A stretch of 64,000 nt of DNA. Origin: Eledone cirrhosa (lineage: Eukaryota). A model generated the notes under the pieces. The model made no database searches. It saw nothing but the letters and a program-made list of their open reading frames with translations, and was not told the DNA's origin. Shown here piece after piece: positions 15,558 through 28,358 of this stretch (position 1 is the stretch's first letter; each line of letters starts with the position of its first letter). Where the stretch lies: contig OZ024741.1 of assembly GCA_964016885.1 (NCBI GenBank), positions 350,300,001 to 350,364,000 on the forward strand. The letters run 5' to 3'. Position numbers and translations under genes: made by a program.

Positions 15558-15748
15558 TATAACAAAGATGGTGGGGTAAGGTACCAGGTGGACTATAACG
15601 CACCAGAGTACTCGATACTTGGGGTAGTAGAGTGGGTAATATGAAAAGATTCAGGACACCGACGGCTGAGCTCCGGCCGTTTCGACAGCTAGATCTAGCT
15701 TCCGAAACGGCCGGAGCTCAGCCGTCGAGGTCCTGAATCTTATCATAT
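15558..15748. mobile_element. Fold-back element (family F) with arms made of an HHR 3' half
   Basis: Palindrome 15639-15748 centred on agctagatctagct. The arm reads GAAA cggc cggagctca gccg TC. Extra terminal sequence lies on the left. Confidence 0.8.
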
Positions 15749-15760
15749 ATATATATATAT

Positions 15761-15862
15761 AGTAATAATAATAAATTTGAAGACTAAAATCCAAAGAAGA
15801 TCCCGTTAAGAGTGAAAGCAGCGATTCTTTGCTTAAACTTTAATCTGTTATTTTAATAAATA
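15761..15862. mobile_element. Internally deleted mini-copy of family B
   Basis: The first ~37 nt match 2269-2305 and the remainder matches ~2859-2927; TA-flanked. Confidence 0.8.
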
Positions 15863-15870
15863 TATATATA

Positions 15871-16037
15871 TATAACGAGGGAATTGTGGTAAGGAACCAG
15901 GTGAACCATAACGCACCAGAGTACTTAATACTTAGGGTAGTAGAGTGGGTGATAGGAAAAGGTATGACCCCGACGGCAGAGCTCAAGCCGTTTCGACGGC
16001 TATTTCACGAGTGCCGTCGGGGTCATACCTTTCCTAT
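15871..16037. mobile_element. Second family F fold-back element (diverged subfamily)
   Basis: Left part homologous to 15558-15684. Inverted arms at 15952-15978 and 16012-16037. Minus strand reads GAAA cggc ttgagctct gccg TC. Confidence 0.75.
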
Positions 16038-16226
16038 ATATATATATATTATATGGAGTGTCTGCGGTACGAAGACCGGCAAGCGCAGAAATCAGAATAT
16101 TATTCGATGCCTGATGAGATACCGACTGAGTATATTAATGTGGTAAAAGTCTGACCACCAACTCGGAGTTTCAACTTGTAGAAGCTTCTAGATATTCCAT
16201 ACTGAAACCGCACAAGTTCGCGTTCT

Positions 16227-16287
<61 letters not shown>

Positions 16288-16482
16288 TGTGTGTCTTCTT
16301 GTTTTAATCATGTACCAGAATCACGTCTCCAGTATATTTTCCCTGTGGACTTTGTGTATGACCGACCGACTGACCACTACTTAGCCACCAACACCAACGT
16401 CCTACGTCAATGTATATTTGTTATTTATTTATCTATTTATTTGCTTTCCAGCCGAGGGACTGAGGTCACGCTGAGGCATACG

Positions 16483-16578
<96 letters not shown>

Positions 16579-16587
16579 TGGCCTCAG

Positions 16588-16618
<31 letters not shown>

Positions 16619-16623
<5 letters not shown>

Positions 16624-16945
16624 GTTTCTACTTTTGGCACAAGGCCAGCAATTATCGCAGTGTATTACTGGTACTTTATTTTATCGACCCCGTAAGGATG
16701 AAAGGCAAAGTGAACCTCGGCGTACATGTATGCATACATACATGCAAACATATATATATAATTGTTTCTACTTTTGGCACAAGGCCAGCAATTATCCCAG
16801 TGCATTACTGGTACTTTATTTTATCGACCCCGTAAGGATGAAAGGCAAATTTAACCTCGGCGGGATTTGAACTCAGAATGGCAAGAGCCGTAACTCTATG
16901 CGTCAGAGCATGGCGTCCGACCCTCTACCAATACTGCCAATCCAC
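16619..16945 (-). mobile_element. Two tandem S1 SINEs (partial 16619-16721; full 16760-16945)
   Basis: Family match; each 3' end abuts (TA)n. Confidence 0.85.
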
Positions 16946-17444
16946 ATAATGTGACTAAATCCGTAGTTTTATGGAAAAGGCAGTGACAATGTTGATTATA
17001 GTGATACCAATGTTATCTCTATTCGTGATGATGATGATGGTGATAATGTGTAATTTTATTCATATAAATAGTAGTTAAATTATATACGCTTTTGATTGCA
17101 GGCGTGATGGTGTTTCTGGTCCAGTCTTGTTCCTATAAACTTACCATGAAAATGAAAATCATTTCAAATATGACCACCCTGTCTTTGTTTGTATATCTAG
17201 CGTTACCTTGTCAATGAAGTATAATATGATGAGGGATTTGGCTGCTATTTCTAGCAAGTCAATTAAACAAGTAGAGTTTCCAGCTGTAAATGATGATGCT
17301 GATAGCTGTGCTATGTGTGTTTATCTTTATAAAGAGTACTTAATATGTATGCGCAATTAATTGCATCGGCTATTGTTTTCTGTGTCTGTGTATTTGTATA
17401 GTGATCTAATGTGGCTATACGTATAATGACAATGGTGGTTTATA

Positions 17445-17474
17445 GTATTTTGTATGTGTGTAATTGTAATGCTG

Positions 17475-17543
<69 letters not shown>

Positions 17544-17680
17544 TTTTGTATGTGTGTAATTGTAATGCTAGTAGTAGTAGTAGTAGTAGTATTTTGTATG
17601 TGTGTAATTGTAATGCTAGTAGTAGTAGTAGTAGTAGTAGTATTTTGTATGTGTGTAATTGTAATGCTAGTAGTAGTAGT
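17445..17680. repeat. Minisatellite: 28-nt unit tattttgtatgtgtgtaattgtaatgct plus variable (AGT)n, 4 copies
   Basis: Direct reading. Confidence 0.9.
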
Positions 17681-18109
17681 GGTGGTGGTGGTGGTTGCTT
17701 AGTCCCGGGTCAATGCTGGTCGAATAGAATTATAATGAAATGCATTCCAGCCATAACCACCCCGTCTTTTTAAACTTATATAAAACTAGATTTTCTTAAC
17801 CGTATGTATGTATTTTCCTTGTGTATGTTGAATAGGGTTACATGCTGAAGGAATTTGGCTGCTATTTCTAGCATGTCCGGCAACTACGTAGATATTTCCT
17901 TGTTAGTTTTGTAGTGATGGGAGTAGTTTGGTTTAATTAGGTTGTTTGCAATTGATGCGAGTGTATAGTTTGTGTATGTTTGTGTGTGGAGCGTCCAAGA
18001 GGATGATCGTGCACATATAAATGTTACTGAACGAAAGGGTTTGTTGTAGCTGCTGTTGTTGTGATAATAGTATCTACTAATAACGTTGCTTTGTGTACTG
18101 TTGTGTGTT

Positions 18110-18172
<63 letters not shown>

Positions 18173-18299
18173 CATGGTGTAAGGTGGTGATGTAAATAGT
18201 ATGATGGTGGTGGAACTGGTTGTTATGATAGTTGTGGTATTTATGATGGTATAGGCTATGGGAATACTAGTTTTAGTAGTCGTATGTATAAAAAGCAAT

Positions 18300-20460
18300 A
18301 GTGGTAGTGGTTTATGGTGGTAGTGGTGATGGTGGTGGTGGTGGTGGTTATGGTGGTGGTTATGGTGGGGGTTGTAGTGGTAGTGGTTTATGGTGGTAGT
18401 GGTGATGGTGATAGTGGTAGTGGTTATGGTGGTAGTGGTGGTGCTGGTGGTTATGGTGGTGGTTGTGGTAGTGGTGGTGGTGGTGGTGGTGGTTATGGTG
18501 GTAGTGGTAGTCATTATGGTGGTAGTTTTAGTGCTGGTGGTTAGGGTGGCTGTGTTAGTGGTTATGGTGGTAGTGGTAAGGGTTAGGGTGGTAGAGGTGG
18601 TAGTTATAATACTAGTGTTAATATTAGTATCAATAATAAGCAGTGATGGTGGTCAGTCATTGAATTTTTCCTTCCTTCCTTCTTTCTTTCCTTCCTCTTT
18701 TGTGTGTTTCTTTATTACGTTTATATTTTAATTAACACGAACAGATCCTCATTTACGAAAATATTATACATGCCAACAACACACACACACGCGCACACAC
18801 ACATCATACGCATCCACACACAAACATACACACATACATATATACACATTCTTTCTCTGTCTGTGTATGTTAACCCACCTATCTTTTTAATTAACACACA
18901 CATGCCTATAGCAGAGTTTCCTTCTCCCCCTCTCTGTCTCACTCCCCCTCTCTTTCTCCTCCTCTCTCTCACTCTCTCTCTCTCTCCCTTTCTTTCTCCC
19001 CCTCCCCCTCTCTCTCTCCTACGTCTATATGAAGTTAGTCTCCTTCCTTTTCTCCCTCCCTCTCTCACACACACATACACATAACATCATGACAACACCA
19101 TCTCTCTTTGTATCTCTCAATCTTTCCCTCCTCTCCTTCTATCTCTCCTCCTTCCCTCTACCTCTCCTCCATCTCTCTATCTCCCTTCCTCTGTATCTCT
19201 CATTCCCCCTCTCTCTCACTCACTCTCTCTCTCACTCTCTATCTCCCTATCTCCCTTCCTCTCTATCTCTCATTCCCCCTCTCTCTCTCTCACTCTCTAT
19301 CTCTCTCACCCTTCTCTCTGTATCTCTCATTCCCTCTCTCCTCCACCCCCTCTCTCTCTCTCTCTCATTCCCTCTCTATCTATCTCTCCTCCTCCCATCT
19401 CTCCCTCAACACACCACAGTTTAATCGTTAGTGGTCATGCAGGTAGCATTGGTTTCGGTCAGGCTGTTAGTTATCTGAAAGTTGGAATTAAGTAGCAAGC
19501 CGGCTAGACTACAGCTGATGGTGTTAATGTTGTGGTTGGTGTTATGGTAGTGGTAGTGGTGGTGGTGGTGAGGTGCTTGTGGTGATTGTGGTGGAGGCGC
19601 TGGTAGTGGTGGTGTTGTTGGTTGCGGCGGCGATAATGGTGGGGTGCATGTGGGTGATTGTGGCGGCGATGGTGGTGATGGTGTTGGTTGTGATGGTTGC
19701 AAGAATGGTGGAGGTGGTTGTGGTGGTGGTGGTGGTGTTGGTTGCGGCGGAGGCGCTGGTGGTGATGTTGTTGTTGGTTGCGGCGGCGATAATGGTGGAG
19801 TGCTTGTGGTGATTGTGGCGGCGATGGTGATGGTTGAAAGAATGGTGGTGGTGGTGTTGGTTGCGGCGGCGATGGTGGTGGGGTGCTTGTGGTGATTGCG
19901 GCGGCGCTGGTGGTGATGGTCTTGATAGTGATGGTGTTGGTTGAGATGGTTCTGGCGATGGTGGTTGCAAGAATGGTGGTGGCGGTTGTGGTAGTGATGG
20001 TGTTGGTTACACCGGTGGTGATAGTTGTGATAGTGGTGGTGGTGGTGGTGGTGGTGGTATGAGGTGATTCTGGTGACGGTGGTATGGTGGTGGTTGTGAT
20101 AGTGGGAGTCGTGGTTCTGGTGATGATGTTTGCAAGAATAGTGGTGGCGGTGAGGGTGGTGGTTGTAGTGGTTCTGGTGATGGTGGCTGCGAGAATAGTG
20201 GTGTTGCTTGCGGCGGCGATGGTGGTGGTGGTGGTGGTGGTTGTAGTGGTTTGGTGATGGCAGTGATGGTGATGGTGATGGTGATGGTGGTTGTGAGGAT
20301 GGAGGTGGTGTTGAATGTGATAGTGATGGTGGTTGTAGTGGTGATAGTGGCTGTGTGGGTGGTGGTTATCGTGGTTGTGAGAATGGTGGTGGTGATGGTG
20401 GTTGTGGTTGTGGTTGTTATGTTGATGGTAGAGACAGCGACGGTGGTGGTAGTATTATGT
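18300..20460. repeat. GGT-rich and CT-rich low-complexity tracts
   Basis: (GGT)n-like at 18300-18600 and 19530-20460; CT-rich at 18920-19410. Confidence 0.85.
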
Positions 20461-21099
20461 TGCTAGTTCGGATAGATGCTAGATGCATAGAGCTGGTTGT
20501 TTAATATCAACATTATATGTGTGTGTGTATGTGTGTATGTATGTATATGTGTGTATGTATGTGTGTGTATGTATGTATATGTGTATTCTTTTTTTATTAT
20601 TATTCATTATTAAATTCTTGTTCCTGTTCTTCGTTTTGCGGTTGCTATTATCATCAGCAACAGTAGTAGTAGTAGTAGTAATAGTAGTAGTAGTAGCAGC
20701 AGCAGTAGTAGCAGCAGCAGTAGTAGTAGTAACAGCAGCAGTAGTAGTGGTAGTAGTAGTAGTAGTAGTTTTTATGTTCGGTATATTTATCTCGGTGGGT
20801 CGTTTTAAGTTAGTTGAATGTAGTCAGTGATAGGGACAGGCAGACAGACAAATAAAGAGAGAATGGGTGTGAATCAGAGAGAGAGAGAGAGAGAGAGAGA
20901 TAGTGTGTGTCTAGATGTGTGCGAGTGTGTGTGTATATATGTGCGTGTGTGTGTGTAAGCCTGACGTTCGGTCCGTCTTTCTTCGGACACTTAAGTAGAT
21001 ATGTGCTGTGGCGTTCAAATAAAGAGTAAACTTGGACAGTTCTAAAATCCATAGACACACACATACGGACATACTGACACGCACACTTATACATACTAG

Positions 21100-21790
21100 T
21101 ACACACATGCCAATATACATACACACATGCCAATATACATACACACATGCCAATATACATACACACATACCGATATACATAGACACATACCGATATACAT
21201 ACACACATACCGATATACATAGACACATACCGATATACATACACACATACCGATATACATAGCCACATACCGACATACATACATGCCTACATACATACAT
21301 ACATGCCTACATACATACATGTATGCATGCCTACATACATACATACATGCCTACATACATACATGCCTACAAACATTACATGCATGCATGCCTATATGCA
21401 TGCCTACATACATACATGCCTACATACATTACATGCATGCATGCCTATATGCATGCCTACATACATACATGCCTACATACATTACATGCATGCATGCCTA
21501 TATGCATGCCTACATACATACATGCCTACATACATTACATGCATGCATGCCTATATGCATGCCTACATACATACATGCCTACATACATTACATGCATGCA
21601 TGCCTATATGCATGCCTACATACATACATACATGCATGCATACATACATGTCTACATACAATCATACATGCATGCCTACATGAATGCCTACATACATACA
21701 TACCTACACACATACATACATACATAAATAGATACATACATGCATGTCTACATACACACATACCTACACACATACATAAATAGATGCATA
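21100..21790. repeat. Minisatellites (20-bp unit, then 53-bp unit) built on CATA/CATG
   Basis: acacacataccgatatacat-type units at 21100-21280; 53-nt acattacatgcatgcatgcctatatgcatgcc... about 5 copies at 21373-21625. Confidence 0.85.
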
Positions 21791-22122
21791 CATGCCTACA
21801 TAGATACATGATGGCTGCCCCCTCGTTATCGAGTATGGCCATTGCACGATATACCATTATTGATAATTATTAATTAATTCTATCGTGCAATGCCTGTGCG
21901 TGAAGATATATTTTAAAGTGAGGAAAGACTGTGTGCATACATACATGCATACATACATACATGCCTACATACATGCATGCCTACATACATACACACATAC
22001 ATACATGTGCAGAGAGACAAGAGTATAGGTTAAACAAGCTACAAGTTAAGGACCCACAATTGTCAGGAAATATCTTCAATTTTTGTGAATCCTTAAATCC
22101 AATTCTGCATACATACATACAT

Positions 22123-22445
22123 ATGGTGGCTGCCAACTCGTTTTCGAGTACGGCCACTACTTTATATCCATGTAGGAGAACCCCTACCGATGCGCTGAAC
22201 GAGTGTGACATTTTAGTCCAGCCAGCGACTTGAAAACTCTGGTACAAACACTACACTTGTGACAATTATTGACACATAGTGCTGGGCCCATGGTACCATG
22301 TGACGACAAGTGCAGAGAGATCTCCAGATATAAAACAATGCCTGTGCCGTGAAGCTTTTATAGTGAGCAAAGGCACTGCACAAAGCCAGTCCCACTCTCT
22401 TAACCAAGATGATATTTACCAAAAAGAAGAACAAGTCAACATCAT
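22123..22445 (-). mobile_element. 5'-truncated copy of the RTE-derived non-autonomous element
   Basis: Matches the 3' ~320 bp of 38012-38622; (CATA)n on both sides. Confidence 0.85.
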
Positions 22446-23177
22446 ACATACATACATACATACATACATACATACATACATACATACATACATACATACA
22501 TACATGGAATGAATCTCCATTGGTTTCGACGATGAGTGTGTCAGTTGTTTATGAAATGGAAGTGCAAGTGGCTGAATATTCCACAGACATGTGTAGCTAT
22601 AACATCAGGGAGTCAGCATGACACAGTTTGTGACAAGGCTGGTCCGGTGGATATGTTCTTTATTTATCGACCCTGAAAGGATGAAAGACAGGATTAGAAC
22701 TCAGATCACAGTAAGCCGAAATGCCCTAACGAGTGCTAATTCACCACCATGCGCGCATACAGAGGCAAACACAAAATATGCTTCCCTCTATCCTGATTAT
22801 GGATTCAACCATTCTTATTATAGAGACATGTGTATGTTTTAATTCTAGTCAGGCGAACTGGCAGGGCCGCTTATGTATTGGATTAAAAATATCCCAGCAT
22901 TTGATCCGGCTCACTGTATTCTGACTTCAAATTCCGGAGAACTCAAAATTGCTTTCGATAAATAAACTACCAATCCAGTAGTGGGCCAATTCTTCCTCTC
23001 CTCTCTATCTCTTACTTTCGCTGGAAGAAATGAACTATTATGACCTGGAAAGGGATAGGCTTCGCCAAGTTTAAGATGTCCCCAAAACGGCATATGGCTG
23101 GACAGCCCTTTTACGATTCCACCATGGTTTAAGGTTCTTTCTCTTTCTTTTTTTTTACTATAATTATATGCATATCT

Positions 23178-23345
23178 GAGGCGGTGAATTGGACAGAGTC
23201 GTGAGAACGTCAGATTGAATACTTTACCGTATTCACTCCGGCTCTCTCTGCTCTGATACCAAATCCTATCGAAGTCAACTTTGGCTTTCATCCTTTCGGG
23301 GTCAATAAAAAAAAGTACCAATCCTGTATTGGGTACTGGAATTGA
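23178..23345 (+). mobile_element. Diverged S1-type SINE
   Basis: ggcggtgaattgg head and ggctttcatcctttcggggtcaataaaa..agtacc core. Confidence 0.65.
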
Positions 23346-25376
23346 TTCTTCCTCTATATCGATTTCCCACTTCTCTCCCTCATTTTATCCTCTTCCCTGG
23401 AAGAAACAATGTATGTTACGACACCCTCCCCCACACGTCTCTACCAGGAGTTACGGGTTAATACACACATGCTCACGTCTAGAATGCTTTATAGTAGGAA
23501 TATTAAATCCACTTCAATATTATACTGGTAATTTATTCATATTCATAAAAAAATATTTATATATTTTGCATTATCTCTGTTCTTAAACATCTCATTTATT
23601 TATATATATATATTTATTTATTTATTTAATTAGTCAGTTAGTTTGTTTGTTAGTTAATTATATGCATTATTGGAATACCAGTACCACCCACTAGCTGTAC
23701 GAGTGAATTATCTATTACTACTACTACTACTACTTCTACTACTACTACTACTACTAGCAGAAGTAGTTACACCTAATACCGTTTCTGATTAATCAAAGGC
23801 ATTCCAGTTGTGACCATCCTGTCATTTTAGGGACCATCTAAGATTACATCACCCAAAATCTTGCTATTACTCCAGCCTCATAGAGGCTCTCTTATATACA
23901 CATATATACACCAGGTCCGAACACAAAACATCTAATCTATCACTGCCTCTGTCTCTCATGCTTATGATCAAAAATATTCAAGCCATAAAAATTGCGTCCT
24001 TTTAGAGATATATTAAAATGTCCTCTTGTATTTTTCAAAACGATGGGTGTGCATTTAAGACAGAATTCCTTACTATTTCTAGCAGTTCAAGCATCCATGT
24101 AAATGATGTTTTTGGTGCTGCAACTGGTGGGTGGTATTAAATCTAATACTCATATTGGCAGCCTTTTATTGAATACTCTTGGTCATGGTATCATATCTGA
24201 TACTCATGGTGGTGATATACCTAATAATCCTGGTCGTGATATCATATCTATACTCCTGCTAGGAATTATAACCGGCAGATAGTATCAGCATTGGAAACAG
24301 CAATGGGAACATAATTTCCTTGGTCTGCTCTAATGATCAGCTTCATTTTGCCGTAGTTTTTCATGGTTGTGGCATAGCTAATATTCCCCGTAGTGATATG
24401 TATGCACACTCCAGGCGTAGGGTGTAGTAATGAAACCACGTGTGCCGGGGCCGAAAATTATTGTGTTCCCACACAGCACCGTTTTTACTACTAACCAACA
24501 CATAGTGTGCAATCTGATATACGGATTGTATTTACTAAATGCAAATTCTGTAAAATCATCGAGCGAGTATCAAACGGCGATCTTAGACAAATTCAATTTG
24601 TCTGGTTCGATAAATATATATATGCAGAGTGGGATTTACGTAAAAGCTAAACAAGCTATAGCTTAGGCCCCCCACTTTCTTGGGGCCCCGAAAAAAAAAA
24701 AAAAAACGGTGTGTACATTTCCAAAATATAAGATAAAAAAGAACTAAAATTATGCAATAGTTTTAAATAGTTTTGTGCTTTAATATTGAGCGTTTTTGCA
24801 GTTTTTATAACATTTTTTATAACATATTATATTTAATACTTCATATTTACTACTTTATATATATATATATATATATATATAACGCCTTAACACATGTAGT
24901 TTGTTTTTATCTGATATTTGGTTTGGTTTTCTCTAAAGTTTTTCTAACAGCAAATGTTCCAACATAAGTTAGTTTTAGGTGCAGTAATGAACATCAACAG
25001 CCTAGTAGTACTAGTAGTATTAGTAGTAGGAGGAGGTTAGTGATGTCGTTTGTGGGCGTGGTAGTGTATTTGCTGCCGCGATAGCTGTAGTACTAATATT
25101 AGCATTTTGTTCTGTCATTTTCGAAGTTTGGATTACCTGCAGCTGGGTTGGTTTCGATGATGGTGGTGATAGTGGTGGTAAGGATGTGTGTGATACACAA
25201 ACTTTCATACCATAGCATTTATCTCTTATCGTTCTGACCTTTTATCATGCCTCCCTTTCTACTACACCTTTTCTCCTAGTGGTTAGTATTTTCTCTACAT
25301 CCTTCTGCTAACGAGCCTCTGCATGGTCACTCAACCTCCTAGACTACTACTACTACTACTACTACTACTGCTGCTG

Positions 25377-25413
<37 letters not shown>

Positions 25414-25968
25414 ATACCAACACCAACCATTTTTCTTCTTTCTCCACCACATGGTCAACTGCATTACACACGTCACTCTGTTCATCAAAATTACCACCCA
25501 CCATCATGAATTTGACCATAATATTAAACATTACTACTACTACTACTACTACTACTTCTACTACTCATCCATCATGACAATGTCATCATCATCAATATCC
25601 CCACCATTATCATATTAATCGCCGCCGCCGCCGCCGTCATTGTCTTCATCATTATGATAAAAGCCTGCTTTTCGTTCGATATAAAATCCTGCTGTGTGTT
25701 AGTGATGAAGTTTGGATTTAATGGATTAAGTATGCAGACGTTTATTAGCCATTAGGGAGGTCTGCTTCAACTTATTAAAATGTCTGAATCATCAACACAG
25801 TTTCGATTGCCTCTTCATTATTTCACCACCCCTACACCAGTAATTTGTTAATATCAAACGAATTGATGGACAGACCAATATTTCTTTTACATTAATTGAG
25901 ACCAAAAATATTTTTATACGCATCGTTATTATGCCCATTTAAAATACACACGAAAAACAAAATGTTGC

Positions 25969-26007
<39 letters not shown>

Positions 26008-26246
26008 CGTGTGTGTGAGCGCACGTATGTGTCTACGCACACTGACACACGTGGAGAAGCTTCAAGCTAAACTGCACACGCTTGATGCAAGTCTGGACAC
26101 ATGCTTTTCCTCTTTAATAGAGATATTGCATAGATAAAAAAGTGACTACCTTCTTGCTATTTTTCAGTTCATAAATAAACCTTAAAAGAAATTAGTGGGT
26201 ATGTAAGTCTAATACATATTCTGTCTTTGTTATTTCTCATCCTAAA

Positions 26247-26680
26247 GGGCGGTGGTTTGGCAGTATCGGTAGGGAGTCGGACGCCATATTTTGCAGCATG
26301 GAGTTACGCCACTTTACGGTCTGGGTTCAAATTCCACCGAGGTTAACTTTGCCTTTCAACCTTACGGGGTCGATAAAATAAAGCACATACTGGGGTCGAT
26401 TTAATCGACTTTCCCCTCCCTCCAAAGTACTGGCCTTGTGCCTACACTAGAAATCGTTATATCTCAATTTACTTATATTGTTCTCTACAATATTAGATTG
26501 TGCAACTGCTCTGAGGTCTTGGATTTTTAACTTCGATTCTCTCATTGAGTGATCATAGAGCCGCATGATCGAATGCCGCCGAGGTTAACTTTGCCTTTCA
26601 TCCTTACGGGGTCGATAAAATAAAGTACCAGTAATGCACTGGGTAATTGCTGGCCTTGTGCCAAAAAGTAGGAACAATTA
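26247..26680 (+). mobile_element. S1 SINE (26247-26460) and partial S1 SINE (26575-26680)
   Basis: Family match. Confidence 0.8.
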
Positions 26681-26689
26681 TATCTAGAT

Positions 26690-27090
26690 ATCTTTTGATC
26701 TACAACGCGGAGGTCCTTTCCGTTCCCCAGTATGGAGTAGAAACGTGGCGCCTCACGAAAACCCTGGCAAAGAGGACCAACGGCTTTGATAGCATAACCT
26801 TGAGGACCAGCGAGAATATCAGATGGTACTATCACATCTCCAACGAAGAGCTGTGTGCGCGCCACGCATCAGCCCGCAGCCTCACGCCTCATAGCCATTC
26901 ATCACATCCACTGGTACGGACGTGTCCTCCGCCTCACGTCAGGACCTAACTCTCCAGCAGCGGTGGGCTAGAAAAGGTCCCGTGGCAGGCCTGCACCAAA
27001 TGGCTCGACGTGATTTAGAAAGATCTCCAAATGTTCGACGTCACATTGACCGCCAGTGTGATCGACGGAATCCCTATAAATCGGTGGTTT
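26690..27090 (+). mobile_element. RTE-clade LINE 3' fragment (decayed)
   Basis: IYNAEVLSVPQYGVETWRLTK...IRWYYHISNEELCAR, then HWYGRVLRL in another frame; typical RTE post-RT motifs (LLYG.ETW, W...VSNEE, W.GHV.R). Confidence 0.8.
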
Positions 27091-28040
27091 CGTATATCGT
27101 CGCAGTCTAATGAATAAGGCCAGTAAAAGAATATGTGTGTGTGTGCATGTATGTCAGTGTATAAAAATCTGTTATTGCAATTGTGTCGGTATTGTAGCTA
27201 CAATGCACCCGTGAACAATTGGAATTATGGCCTTCATAAAATTATTTTCAGTTTCATGATATATTTGGTAGGGTCATAAGATTTCCATGATAAAAAAAAA
27301 ACCCTTTCAACTTGCCTACATTCACTTGAAGGTGAAATGTTCCCAAAATATGTTTTTAGCACGATTGCGCAATATTCATTAGTTATGCAAAACAATCAGT
27401 CAACAAAAATATAATTTTGAAATAACAAACAGAATTAATTCTATAATCTTTATTGAAAACAACATCGTTAATGGAAAATAACCTGATTGAATACTTATGT
27501 TACAATAAGCACAATATTTTATATCTTTGGATTAGACATGCTCGCTTTATTTTCTTTCTATAAAATGTGCAACCTTTTAATCAACCTTCTATATAGAAAG
27601 TGGCTCGACAGCTTCATTCGGCAGTTTTACCTAGATTATATTGAGTTTGTTTGGAACTAGATTAAAGTATAACTCTACAATGATAGTCATCTCATAAAGT
27701 GGTGTCTAGAATTAGTTCCACATATATATATATATATACAAGATATGACGCTAGTGAAATCTTTTATTCATTGAATTTTATATAAGGAATCACGTCACAG
27801 CATCCGAACAGTGCTTCCATAAATTGTCTTGTAGCCACACAACGGCAAAATAATTATTTCATAATTACGTTGCTGATATTTTGTTCTTTTATAGCGTTTG
27901 AAAATACATGAATTAATAATCTAAATCTTTTAATATTGGTGAAGTGATCGATAAGAATGTGGTTTGAAAGAGGAGAAAATGTTTCTCTTCCGTCCTCTTT
28001 TCCCTTTCTATCTTTCTATTTTTTTTTTTATTTCTCATTC

Positions 28041-28080
28041 TATATTCTGATGAACGACTAGCGTCAGAAACGTTAAGACT
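28041..28080 (+). ncRNA. Degenerate minimal hammerhead motif
   Basis: tt CTGATGA a c gac tagc gtc a GAAA cg TT aa. Intact core and ACGT palindrome, but stem I pairs weakly. Confidence 0.4.
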
Positions 28081-28177
28081 ATTCCTTGTATATTAAGCAT
28101 GAAACTAATATCTTCATTGAACCTCATAGTCTGTTGTGTTTTCTTTTCCGTACAGTTTTCACACACATATATCTATA

Positions 28178-28220
<43 letters not shown>

Positions 28221-28222
<2 letters not shown>

Positions 28223-28355
28223 GAGTACTCAATGCATGGGGAGTTCCAGATTGGATATAGAGAAATGTAAAATCCGGACTGCGGCGCCAAGCTGTTTCGG
28301 CTCGCTAAATACATAAGGCTAAACCGCTTGGCACCGCGGTCAGGATTTTACATTT

Positions 28356-28358
<3 letters not shown>
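28221..28358. mobile_element. Fold-back element related to family F
   Basis: Inverted arms at 28260-28297 and 28321-28358 containing (G/T)AAA ccgc ttggcacc gcgg TC aggat. Shares gagtactc.at.c.tgggg with 15607-15624. Confidence 0.7.

What the first reader, a model, noticed from the sequence alone, without database searches (positions are those of the whole stretch)
15558..28358. Three related elements each fold back at hammerhead stem II
Seen: at 15639-15748, 15952-16037 and 28260-28358 the long arm contains an HHR 3' half (GAAA-stem III-GUC-stem I strand). The inversion point lies immediately 5' of GAAA, where stem II would be, and CUGANGA is missing. The three are diverged relatives, so the events look independent. 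Inference: nascent cDNA snaps back at the stem II hairpin and RT copies its own product. This would be a specific mechanism for PLE inverted ends that also disables the ribozyme.
Basis: partly seen in the sequence, partly recalled or inferred. Interest (0 to 1): 0.8.

Follow-up and report, generated by a model that had tools for sequence, protein, structure and literature searches.

The report
Paired run-off copies of Penelope retrotransposons
The three palindromes are head-to-head pairs of short fragments of Penelope-type retrotransposons, and in the two families with good samples most fragments stop at one start-site-like motif inside the element's ribozyme, likely because two separately primed DNA copies run off the front end of the RNA rather than one copy folding back on itself.

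Summary
The palindromes and hammerhead 3' halves are real. They are ends of Hydra-clade Penelope-like retrotransposons; a young intact relative of element 2 (784-codon RT + GIY-YIG frame, 3531-bp tandem unit) lies elsewhere in this genome. Intact members carry a full hammerhead with a U3-A8 core (UUGANAA, not CUGANGA) and a 54-56 nt stem II.

The proposed snap-back at stem II is not supported. Of 374 arm ends, 12 lie just before GAAA, 223 at -19..-12 (peak -18/-17), and only 35 pass -22. The wall sits on a conserved initiator-like TYAGTY, with an excess of non-templated G (cap-like). 97 of 100 inverted pairs join one tailed and one tail-less arm, and either arm may reach further, which one folded cDNA cannot give. 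Three-piece copies show jumps from the wall or from +24, the predicted ribozyme cut. No long ORF copy examined starts at the wall.

Best reading: twin priming at two fixed sites near the RNA's 5' end, run-off, then joining. The architecture is known; the wall, the strict pairing and the jumps were not found in the papers searched. No RNA data were available.

The parts
15560..15695 (-). Element 1 tailed arm (family 1), positions -12 to +124; GAAA G at 15683, stem III, GUC, stem I 3' strand, short end site B near 15639, 79-nt tail to site A at (TA)n
15692..15748 (+). Element 1 tail-less arm, -12 to +45 (site B); GAAA G at 15704; shares the GATC at 15692-15695 with the other arm
15873..16006 (-). 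Element 2 tailed arm (family 2), -12 to about +122; GAAA G at 15994
16007..16011 (.). Element 2 centre, 5 nt not assigned to either arm
16012..16037 (+). Element 2 tail-less arm, +17 to +43; has no GAAA
28220..28300 (-). Element 3 tailed arm (family 3), from about -2; decayed stem III; tail shorter than in other family 3 copies
28299..28358 (+). Element 3 tail-less arm with the whole natural 21-nt stem II, decayed GAAA, stem III and GUC; ends at (TC)n

Best explanation
These are head-to-head pairs of 5'-truncated fragments of Hydra-clade Penelope-like retrotransposons, likely made when two cDNAs, primed on opposite strands of a (TA)n target at two fixed sites near the RNA's 5' end, run off that end and are joined. 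Shown by sequence: two fixed 3' ends (B at +43/+45, A at +122/+124); nearly always one of each per pair; a sharp 5' wall at -18/-17 on a conserved TYAGTY inside stem II of a U3-A8 hammerhead; a smaller set of pieces starting at +24; same-direction jumps from those ends. Inferred: -18 is the capped Pol II start, so the 5' ribozyme copy is never transcribed whole; +24 is the 5' end left by ribozyme cleavage; both cDNAs usually use one RNA; their 3' ends are joined by end-joining or a template jump with 0-3 nt homology, occasionally helped by stem II or stem III complementarity. Inferred with less support: long copies come from templates with no end at -18 (circles, multimers or seamless jumps).
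For: Wall: of 374 parsed arm ends (family 1: 131, family 2: 141, family 2b: 102), 109 lie at -18/-17, 223 at -19..-12, 12 at -3..+1 and 35 pass -22; in the youngest family none of 102 falls between -23 and -110. Copies with no inverted partner also start there (for example L153, L196, L201, L264, L465, L466, L470). TYAKTY matches with A at -18 in all three yardsticks, against 19 matches in the 3531-nt unit; YYAGT stays constant in a diverged part of alignment A1; consensus from PMC4581360. Base before A-18, naturally T or C: G in 9 of 25 arms against 13 of 102 elsewhere in family 2 (p=0.015), 6 of 11 in family 2b; an extra G marks capping in L1 (PMC11702581). Pairing: 55 of 57 and 42 of 43 pairs are A+B, none A+A (about half expected if independent). 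Either arm reaches further (28 vs 23, 16 vs 16, 34 vs 18). Same template: arms agree at polymorphic +42 in 35 of 40 pairs against 21 shuffled. Nine three-piece copies have an ORF piece followed in the same direction by a piece from -12..-21 (6) or from +24 (3), and in those 3 no piece reaches upstream of +22. Two internal RT start sites, both strands extended and a predicted dimer are reported for a lizard PLE (PMC11167929); an internal Inr/DPE promoter in the pLTR for Drosophila Penelope (PMC2377424).
Against: No RNA evidence: the start site, cap and cleavage are read from DNA only. The wall is smeared (-22 to -12, second peak of 39 ends at -12). The commonest single junction in family 2 (-18 joined to -12) leaves a 6-nt loop (11 of 41 centres), which a fold-back turn would also give. 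C precedes A-18 more often than G in family 2 (16 vs 9; 13 of the 16 are at junctions where it is the partner arm's last base). In the first 100 rows, G at -19 is only 10, against about 21 non-natural contexts with T. DPE and MTE matches are partial (5 of 6; 9 of 12 for family 1, counted by eye). Family 3, the family of element 3, shows scattered ends and no sharp wall in 60 loci read by eye. The cluster at +18..+25 (21 of 46 ends) is confounded by stem III homology. In vitro, cleavage was not needed for the lizard PLE and no reads began at its cut (PMC11167929).
Confidence: 0.66

Rival explanations
1. Two primings as above, but -18 is an RT stop or RNA processing site (protein footprint, tertiary contact, nuclease cut), not a transcription start.
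For: YYAGT could be conserved as an RNA motif; the ends are smeared; the G excess is modest; no RNA data.
Against: Pairing state at -18 differs between families; 0 of 29 independent ORF-spanning copies stop there against 243 of 278 arms that reach -11; extra G; initiator match.
Confidence: 0.15
2. Hybrid: the cDNA runs to the RNA's 5' end and then turns back or jumps onto a cDNA strand, as R2 proteins do, and this makes the junction; a second primed cDNA still supplies the other end.
For: 11 of 41 family 2 centres have a 6-nt loop; snap-back after full-length cDNA is reported for R2 (PMC11371274); the arms share variants.
Against: 14 of 41 centres have only 0-2 unpaired bases, too tight for a hairpin turn. 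It changes only how the junction forms.
Confidence: 0.12
3. One reading: one nascent cDNA snaps back at the stem II hairpin and copies itself.
For: Junctions that use stem II complementarity exist (L171, L172, L174, element 3), and a few use stem III (L141, L160, L286). Self-priming was proposed for PLE palindromes, on an antisense template (PMC3846280).
Against: Rare (3 real of 4 hits genome-wide for family 1), and the loop is on the tail-less arm each time; the tail-less arm holds at least 10 nt absent from the tailed arm in 17 of 55 family 1 pairs; only 12 of 374 ends lie next to GAAA.
Confidence: 0.04
4. The palindromes are a MITE-like unit, or long inverted insertions whose centres were deleted after insertion.
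For: Old family 1 copies have many deletions; deletion between stem II repeats could give L171-type junctions.
Against: Centres differ copy by copy; unpaired copies share the wall; the youngest family has the sharpest wall; the arms continue into an RT/GIY-YIG frame.
Confidence: 0.03

Closest known systems
Hydra-clade C-terminal EN+ Penelope-like elements (PMC8557442, section 11)
   Same: RT then GIY-YIG in one frame; RWR, DKT, CxCX5C, CxxC and CxH motifs; (TA)n target; hammerhead in the terminal repeat; partial tandems; inverted 5'-truncated copy with an optional tail.
   Different: Tail 79 nt rather than 30-40; unit 3.5 kb rather than under 3 kb; hammerhead with U3-A8 core and 54-56 nt stem II; a fixed 5' wall inside the ribozyme is not described in the sections read.
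Poseidon element PAc of Anolis (PMC11167929)
   Same: Two internal RT start sites that define the tail, near the ORF start and downstream of the hammerhead; both target strands extended; predicted dimer.
   Different: That work does not explain inverted ends or 5' ends and saw no reads at the cut; here genomic pieces start at +24.
Penelope of Drosophila virilis (PMC2377424)
   Same: Internal TATA-less promoter with initiator in the pLTR; full copies preceded by a truncated upstream copy.
   Different: No intron tested here; a link between start site and truncation wall is not stated in the parts read, which call pLTR regeneration unexplained.
L1 twin priming and cap-derived G (PMC11702581); R2 snap-back (PMC11371274)
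   Same: Second priming from the other target strand gives head-to-head inversion; extra G at complete 5' ends.
   Different: In L1 the two cDNAs copy adjacent stretches from variable sites; here both sites are fixed and the cDNAs mostly copy the same 60 nt.
PLE hammerheads with U3-A8 core in Schistosoma (PMC4209133)
   Same: Type I hammerhead, U3-A8 core, opposite-strand pairs 100-700 bp apart; circular RNA template proposed.
   Different: Those are minimal dimer-type motifs; this one has a 5-bp stem III and a long bulged stem II.

Membership tests
Hydra-clade PLE | Single ORF with RT and C-terminal GIY-YIG endonuclease | tested here: met
   784-codon frame with YRDD, VIY...YIG; family 1 remnant L169. 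Pfam gave no hit; Atlas neighbours at 0.99 carry HTH_animal in 25-38% of members.
Hydra-clade PLE | RWK-type motif, DKT, CxCX5C linker, CxxC and CxH, no CX2-5CxxC linker | tested here: met
   RWR at 104, DKT at 184, CNCPDRSIC at 639, CNLC at 737, CKH at 765; CX2-5CxxC absent (definition).
Hydra-clade PLE | Placement in the Hydra clade on an RT tree | not tested
   No reference proteins were fetched.
Hydra-clade PLE | Insertion into (TA)n; tandem or inverted copies with optional tail | tested here: met
   Family 3 ends mostly in (TC)n, and its ORF was not traced.
Type I hammerhead ribozyme | Core C3/U3-UGAN-G8/A8-A, GAAA, NUH and three stems | tested here: met
   UUGANAA with N = U, A, C or G; stems I-III pair in 95.6% of cells; 3 stem II pairs change on both sides; slid controls 28-53% (12 related sequences, so covariation reflects few events).
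Type I hammerhead ribozyme | Self-cleavage after C+23 | not testable with these tools
   Indirect only: pieces starting at +24 in L492, L506, L507 and L499.
Pol II core promoter (Inr-type) | Initiator consensus with A+1 at the RNA start | tested here: inconclusive
   Motif matches at -18 in three subfamilies; the RNA start itself was not observed.
Pol II core promoter (Inr-type) | DPE at +28..+33 or MTE at +18..+29 | tested here: inconclusive
   5 of 6 DPE, 9 of 12 MTE (family 1), counted by eye against the table.
Twin-primed inversion | Both arms templated by RNA from opposite target strands | tested here: met
   Each arm can hold sequence the other lacks; 8 of 55 family 1 pairs barely overlap.
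Twin-primed inversion | Target-site duplication around the pair | not tested
   Flanks are (TA)n, where a duplication cannot be read.
MITE | Fixed internal sequence copied as one unit, no RT-coding parent | tested here: not met
   Centres differ per copy and the parent encodes RT.

The most novel reading that the evidence does not exclude
These PLEs start transcription inside their own hammerhead, so only the 3' copy can cut, and that cut removes the 3' priming sites. RT can then prime only near the 5' end. Capped RNAs give the tens of thousands of short paired run-off arms, while ribozyme-cut monomers (+24 to +23) are copied round as circles or by a jump to their own 3' end, which rebuilds the pLTR and the tandem arrays. 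That would tie inverted ends, the tail, pLTR regeneration and the ribozyme into one cycle.
Probability: 0.4. Interest if true: 0.82.

Novelty: new variant of a known kind. Interest (0 to 1): 0.6.

Why it matters
How PLEs make inverted ends, regenerate their pseudo-LTR and use their hammerhead are stated as open in the papers read (PMC2377424, PMC3846280, PMC8557442, PMC11167929). This genome holds a very young intact family (10,183 exact matches of one end, 146 of the tail-to-ORF junction) whose insertions record where templates end. It gives base-level predictions (start at A-18, cut before G+24, priming at +43 and +122) that one 5' RACE and one in vitro assay can test. The element class, the inverted-plus-tail layout and the U3-A8 core are already known.

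Tried and rejected
Rfam scan of the window at E<=5: the 150 rows shown of 806 were all microRNA models over simple repeats or one hairpin, none a hammerhead. The inverted-repeat finder was swamped by microsatellites. Pfam found nothing for three fragments or the 784-aa frame. RNA search: no RNA holder listed. The two runs laid are contigs and cannot show starts; they only repeat opposite-strand joints and loose ends near the wall, and may be the source material. A 41-nt duplication of -18..+23, expected from a blunt jump from the cap to the cut 3' end, was not found in 524 held loci. A 3' splice site at AG(-18/-17) was considered: it would not leave free ends, and no shared upstream exon appears at junctions. 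A wall near -37 in family 3 is only a hint from a few copies read by eye. The Terminon paper was not held. Look-ups of earlier scan findings returned nothing. Literature searches for the specific model found no paper stating it; most subscription papers are outside the library, and supplements were searched only for PMC8557442 and PMC11167929 (first places only).
Full report
Coordinates below are relative to the G of the hammerhead GAAA (+1), on the element's sense strand.

Observation. The three inverted pairs are present. Their long arms read GAAA, stem III, GUC and a stem I strand on the minus strand. The junctions are not immediately before GAAA. Element 1 has both arms ending at -12 on a shared GATC. 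Element 2 has -12 joined to +17. Element 3 has about -2 joined to -21, with the natural stem II kept on the tail-less arm. The window lies in a 3.0-Gb genome.

What the elements are. Walking upstream from element 1's family reached L169, which holds RT and GIY-YIG remnants, a 1.1-kb 3' UTR and the hammerhead, ending in (TA)n. A protein search found a young relative of element 2, here family 2b, with an intact 784-codon frame in 3531-bp tandem units. Its motifs match the Hydra clade description; no tree was built. Long copies carry the whole ribozyme: stem I ACCCC/GGGGU, core UUGANAA, stem II of 54-56 nt, stem III of 5 bp, predicted cut after +23. Three stem II pairs change on both sides between subfamilies. 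The U3-A8 core is known from Schistosoma PLEs (PMC4209133, parts 1-2 of 4 read). Family 3 has the same core type with a 21-nt stem II. The head-to-head layout with an optional tail is known (PMC8557442 passages; PMC3846280 passages and Discussion).

Where arms end. Samples were anchored away from the junction. Family 1: all 77 exact tail matches; L099 dropped as a family 2 body; 55 pairs parsed and 21 without a parsed partner, some with a decayed one. Family 2: 90 loci from the first 100 rows of 6195; one mis-fetched, 5 duplicates, 84 unique. Family 2b: 70 loci from the first 100 rows of 10,183; 59 unique. The anchor arm in families 2 and 2b must cover +10..+43. Pooled, 374 ends: 47 at -18, 62 at -17, 39 at -12, 223 in -19..-12, 12 in -3..+1, 35 beyond -22. 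In family 2b none of 102 lies between -23 and -110.

Why not a hairpin stop. Position -18 is unpaired in the family 1 fold and paired in family 2. Of 50 of the 146 copies that run from the tail into the ORF, 38 continue to the end of the DNA held (29 independent insertions), and all 38 have 5' ends at -60 or further upstream. Two more are long copies with internal deletions, starting at +23/+24 (L499) and +70 (L512). By contrast 243 of 278 sampled arms that reach -11 stop by -22. The same stem II is thus crossed freely after a full lap. The predicted product of fold-back on the natural stem II gave 4 hits, 3 real.

Why two cDNAs. The tail cannot be copied from a tail-less cDNA, so a one-cDNA model needs the tailed arm to reach furthest. 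The tail-less arm reaches further in 34 of 55 (family 1), 28 of 55 (family 2) and 16 of 42 (family 2b, beyond microhomology) pairs. In 17 of 55 family 1 pairs it holds 10 or more bases the other lacks, and in 8 the tailed arm starts at +38 or later. In the 3 stem II joins and in element 3 the loop is on the tail-less arm. Pairs are A+B in 55 of 57 and 42 of 43, never A+A. Arms agree at +42 in 35 of 40 pairs against 21 shuffled, which fits one RNA or one master copy but does not itself separate the models. Two internal start sites and extension of both strands are shown in vitro for a lizard PLE (PMC11167929, parts 1-2 of 4 read).

What the wall likely is. A-18 is the A of TTAGTT, TTAGTC or TCAGTC, which fits initiator consensuses (PMC4581360 passages). 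The looser TYAKTY occurs 19 times in 3531 nt and at -18 in all three subfamilies; these are related, so this is one observation, not three. An extra G precedes A-18 in 9 of 25 family 2 arms (13 of 102 elsewhere) and 6 of 11 family 2b arms; L292 has it on both arms. In L1 such a G reflects the cap (PMC11702581 passages). Against: C is commoner than G in family 2, the first 100 rows hold only 10 G, downstream promoter motifs match only in part, and family 3 shows no sharp wall. Drosophila Penelope has an internal promoter in its pLTR (PMC2377424, parts 2-3 of 4 read).

Jumps and the ribozyme cut. Of the ten short tail-to-ORF copies, nine are three-piece: an inverted arm, an ORF piece ending at +184..+568, then in the same direction a piece from -12..-21 (six) or from +24 (L492, L506, L507); the tenth (L508) is primed at +307. 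All nine keep one A and one B end. In the three +24 cases no piece reaches upstream of +22, as if the template began at the predicted cut. This points to RT leaving a template end and resuming on the same or another RNA. Ends also cluster at +18..+25 (21 of 46 between +2 and +41), but stem III homology explains part of that.

Model. Shown: fixed ends A and B, A+B pairing, the wall, +24 starts, jumps, and passage of long copies through the wall. Inferred: capped start at -18, cleavage at +23, twin priming on one RNA, joining with 0-3 nt homology. Speculative: long copies arise on circles, multimers or by seamless jumps; circles were proposed in PMC4209133. How the junction closes is open: 14 of 41 family 2 centres have 0-2 unpaired bases and 11 have 6; snap-back at a template end is known for R2 (PMC11371274 passages).

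Novelty. Class, layout and core variant are known. Searches and passages of bioRxiv 10.64898/2026.07.22.740005 and PMC6431247 gave no statement of a start-site wall, strict A+B pairing or jumps from the cut. Subscription papers and most supplements were not seen. Verdict: a real, mostly known feature with the wrong mechanism proposed, leading to a better and directly testable one.

Noticed in passing
window 4520-4930: Head-to-head pair of another PLE-like end with an intact minimal hammerhead (CUGACGA, palindromic stem III) on both arms and a tail on the right arm.
   Followed up: partly
window 6300-6655: Near-perfect head-to-head pair of a further family, with CUGAUGA...GAAA on both strands (6402 minus, 6565 plus); shows that inverted ends need not cut the ribozyme.
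   Followed up: partly
window 16111-16230: CUGAUGA followed about 85 nt later by GAAAC and a stem III-like hairpin: a possible decayed hammerhead with a very long stem II beside element 2.
   Followed up: no
window 28047-28075: Minimal hammerhead-like motif (CUGAUGA, short stem II, GAAACGUU) of a repeat also seen in flanks such as L084, L174 and L212.
   Followed up: no
window 1638, 5761, 52131 (minus strand): Related repeat ends with CUGA(U/C)GA next to (TA)n and no clear GAAA-stem III nearby.
   Followed up: no
window 50726-50861: Long imperfect hairpin with about 40-nt arms; weak microRNA model hit below threshold.
   Followed up: no
L325-L326 (G000:C1:437.20 Mb); also C1:91.48 Mb, C2:51.28 Mb: Tandem arrays of the intact 3531-bp family 2b unit, several with open 784-codon frames.
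   Followed up: partly
G000:C2:356030068-356031895: Seven matches of the tail-to-ORF junction at 299-bp spacing: a possible satellite or retrozyme-like array from the 5' end of family 2b.
   Followed up: no
L110, L310, L324: A subfamily with core CUGAGAA (C3 opposite A8), between the canonical and U3-A8 cores.
   Followed up: no
window from 52291: A run of N begins here.
   Followed up: no
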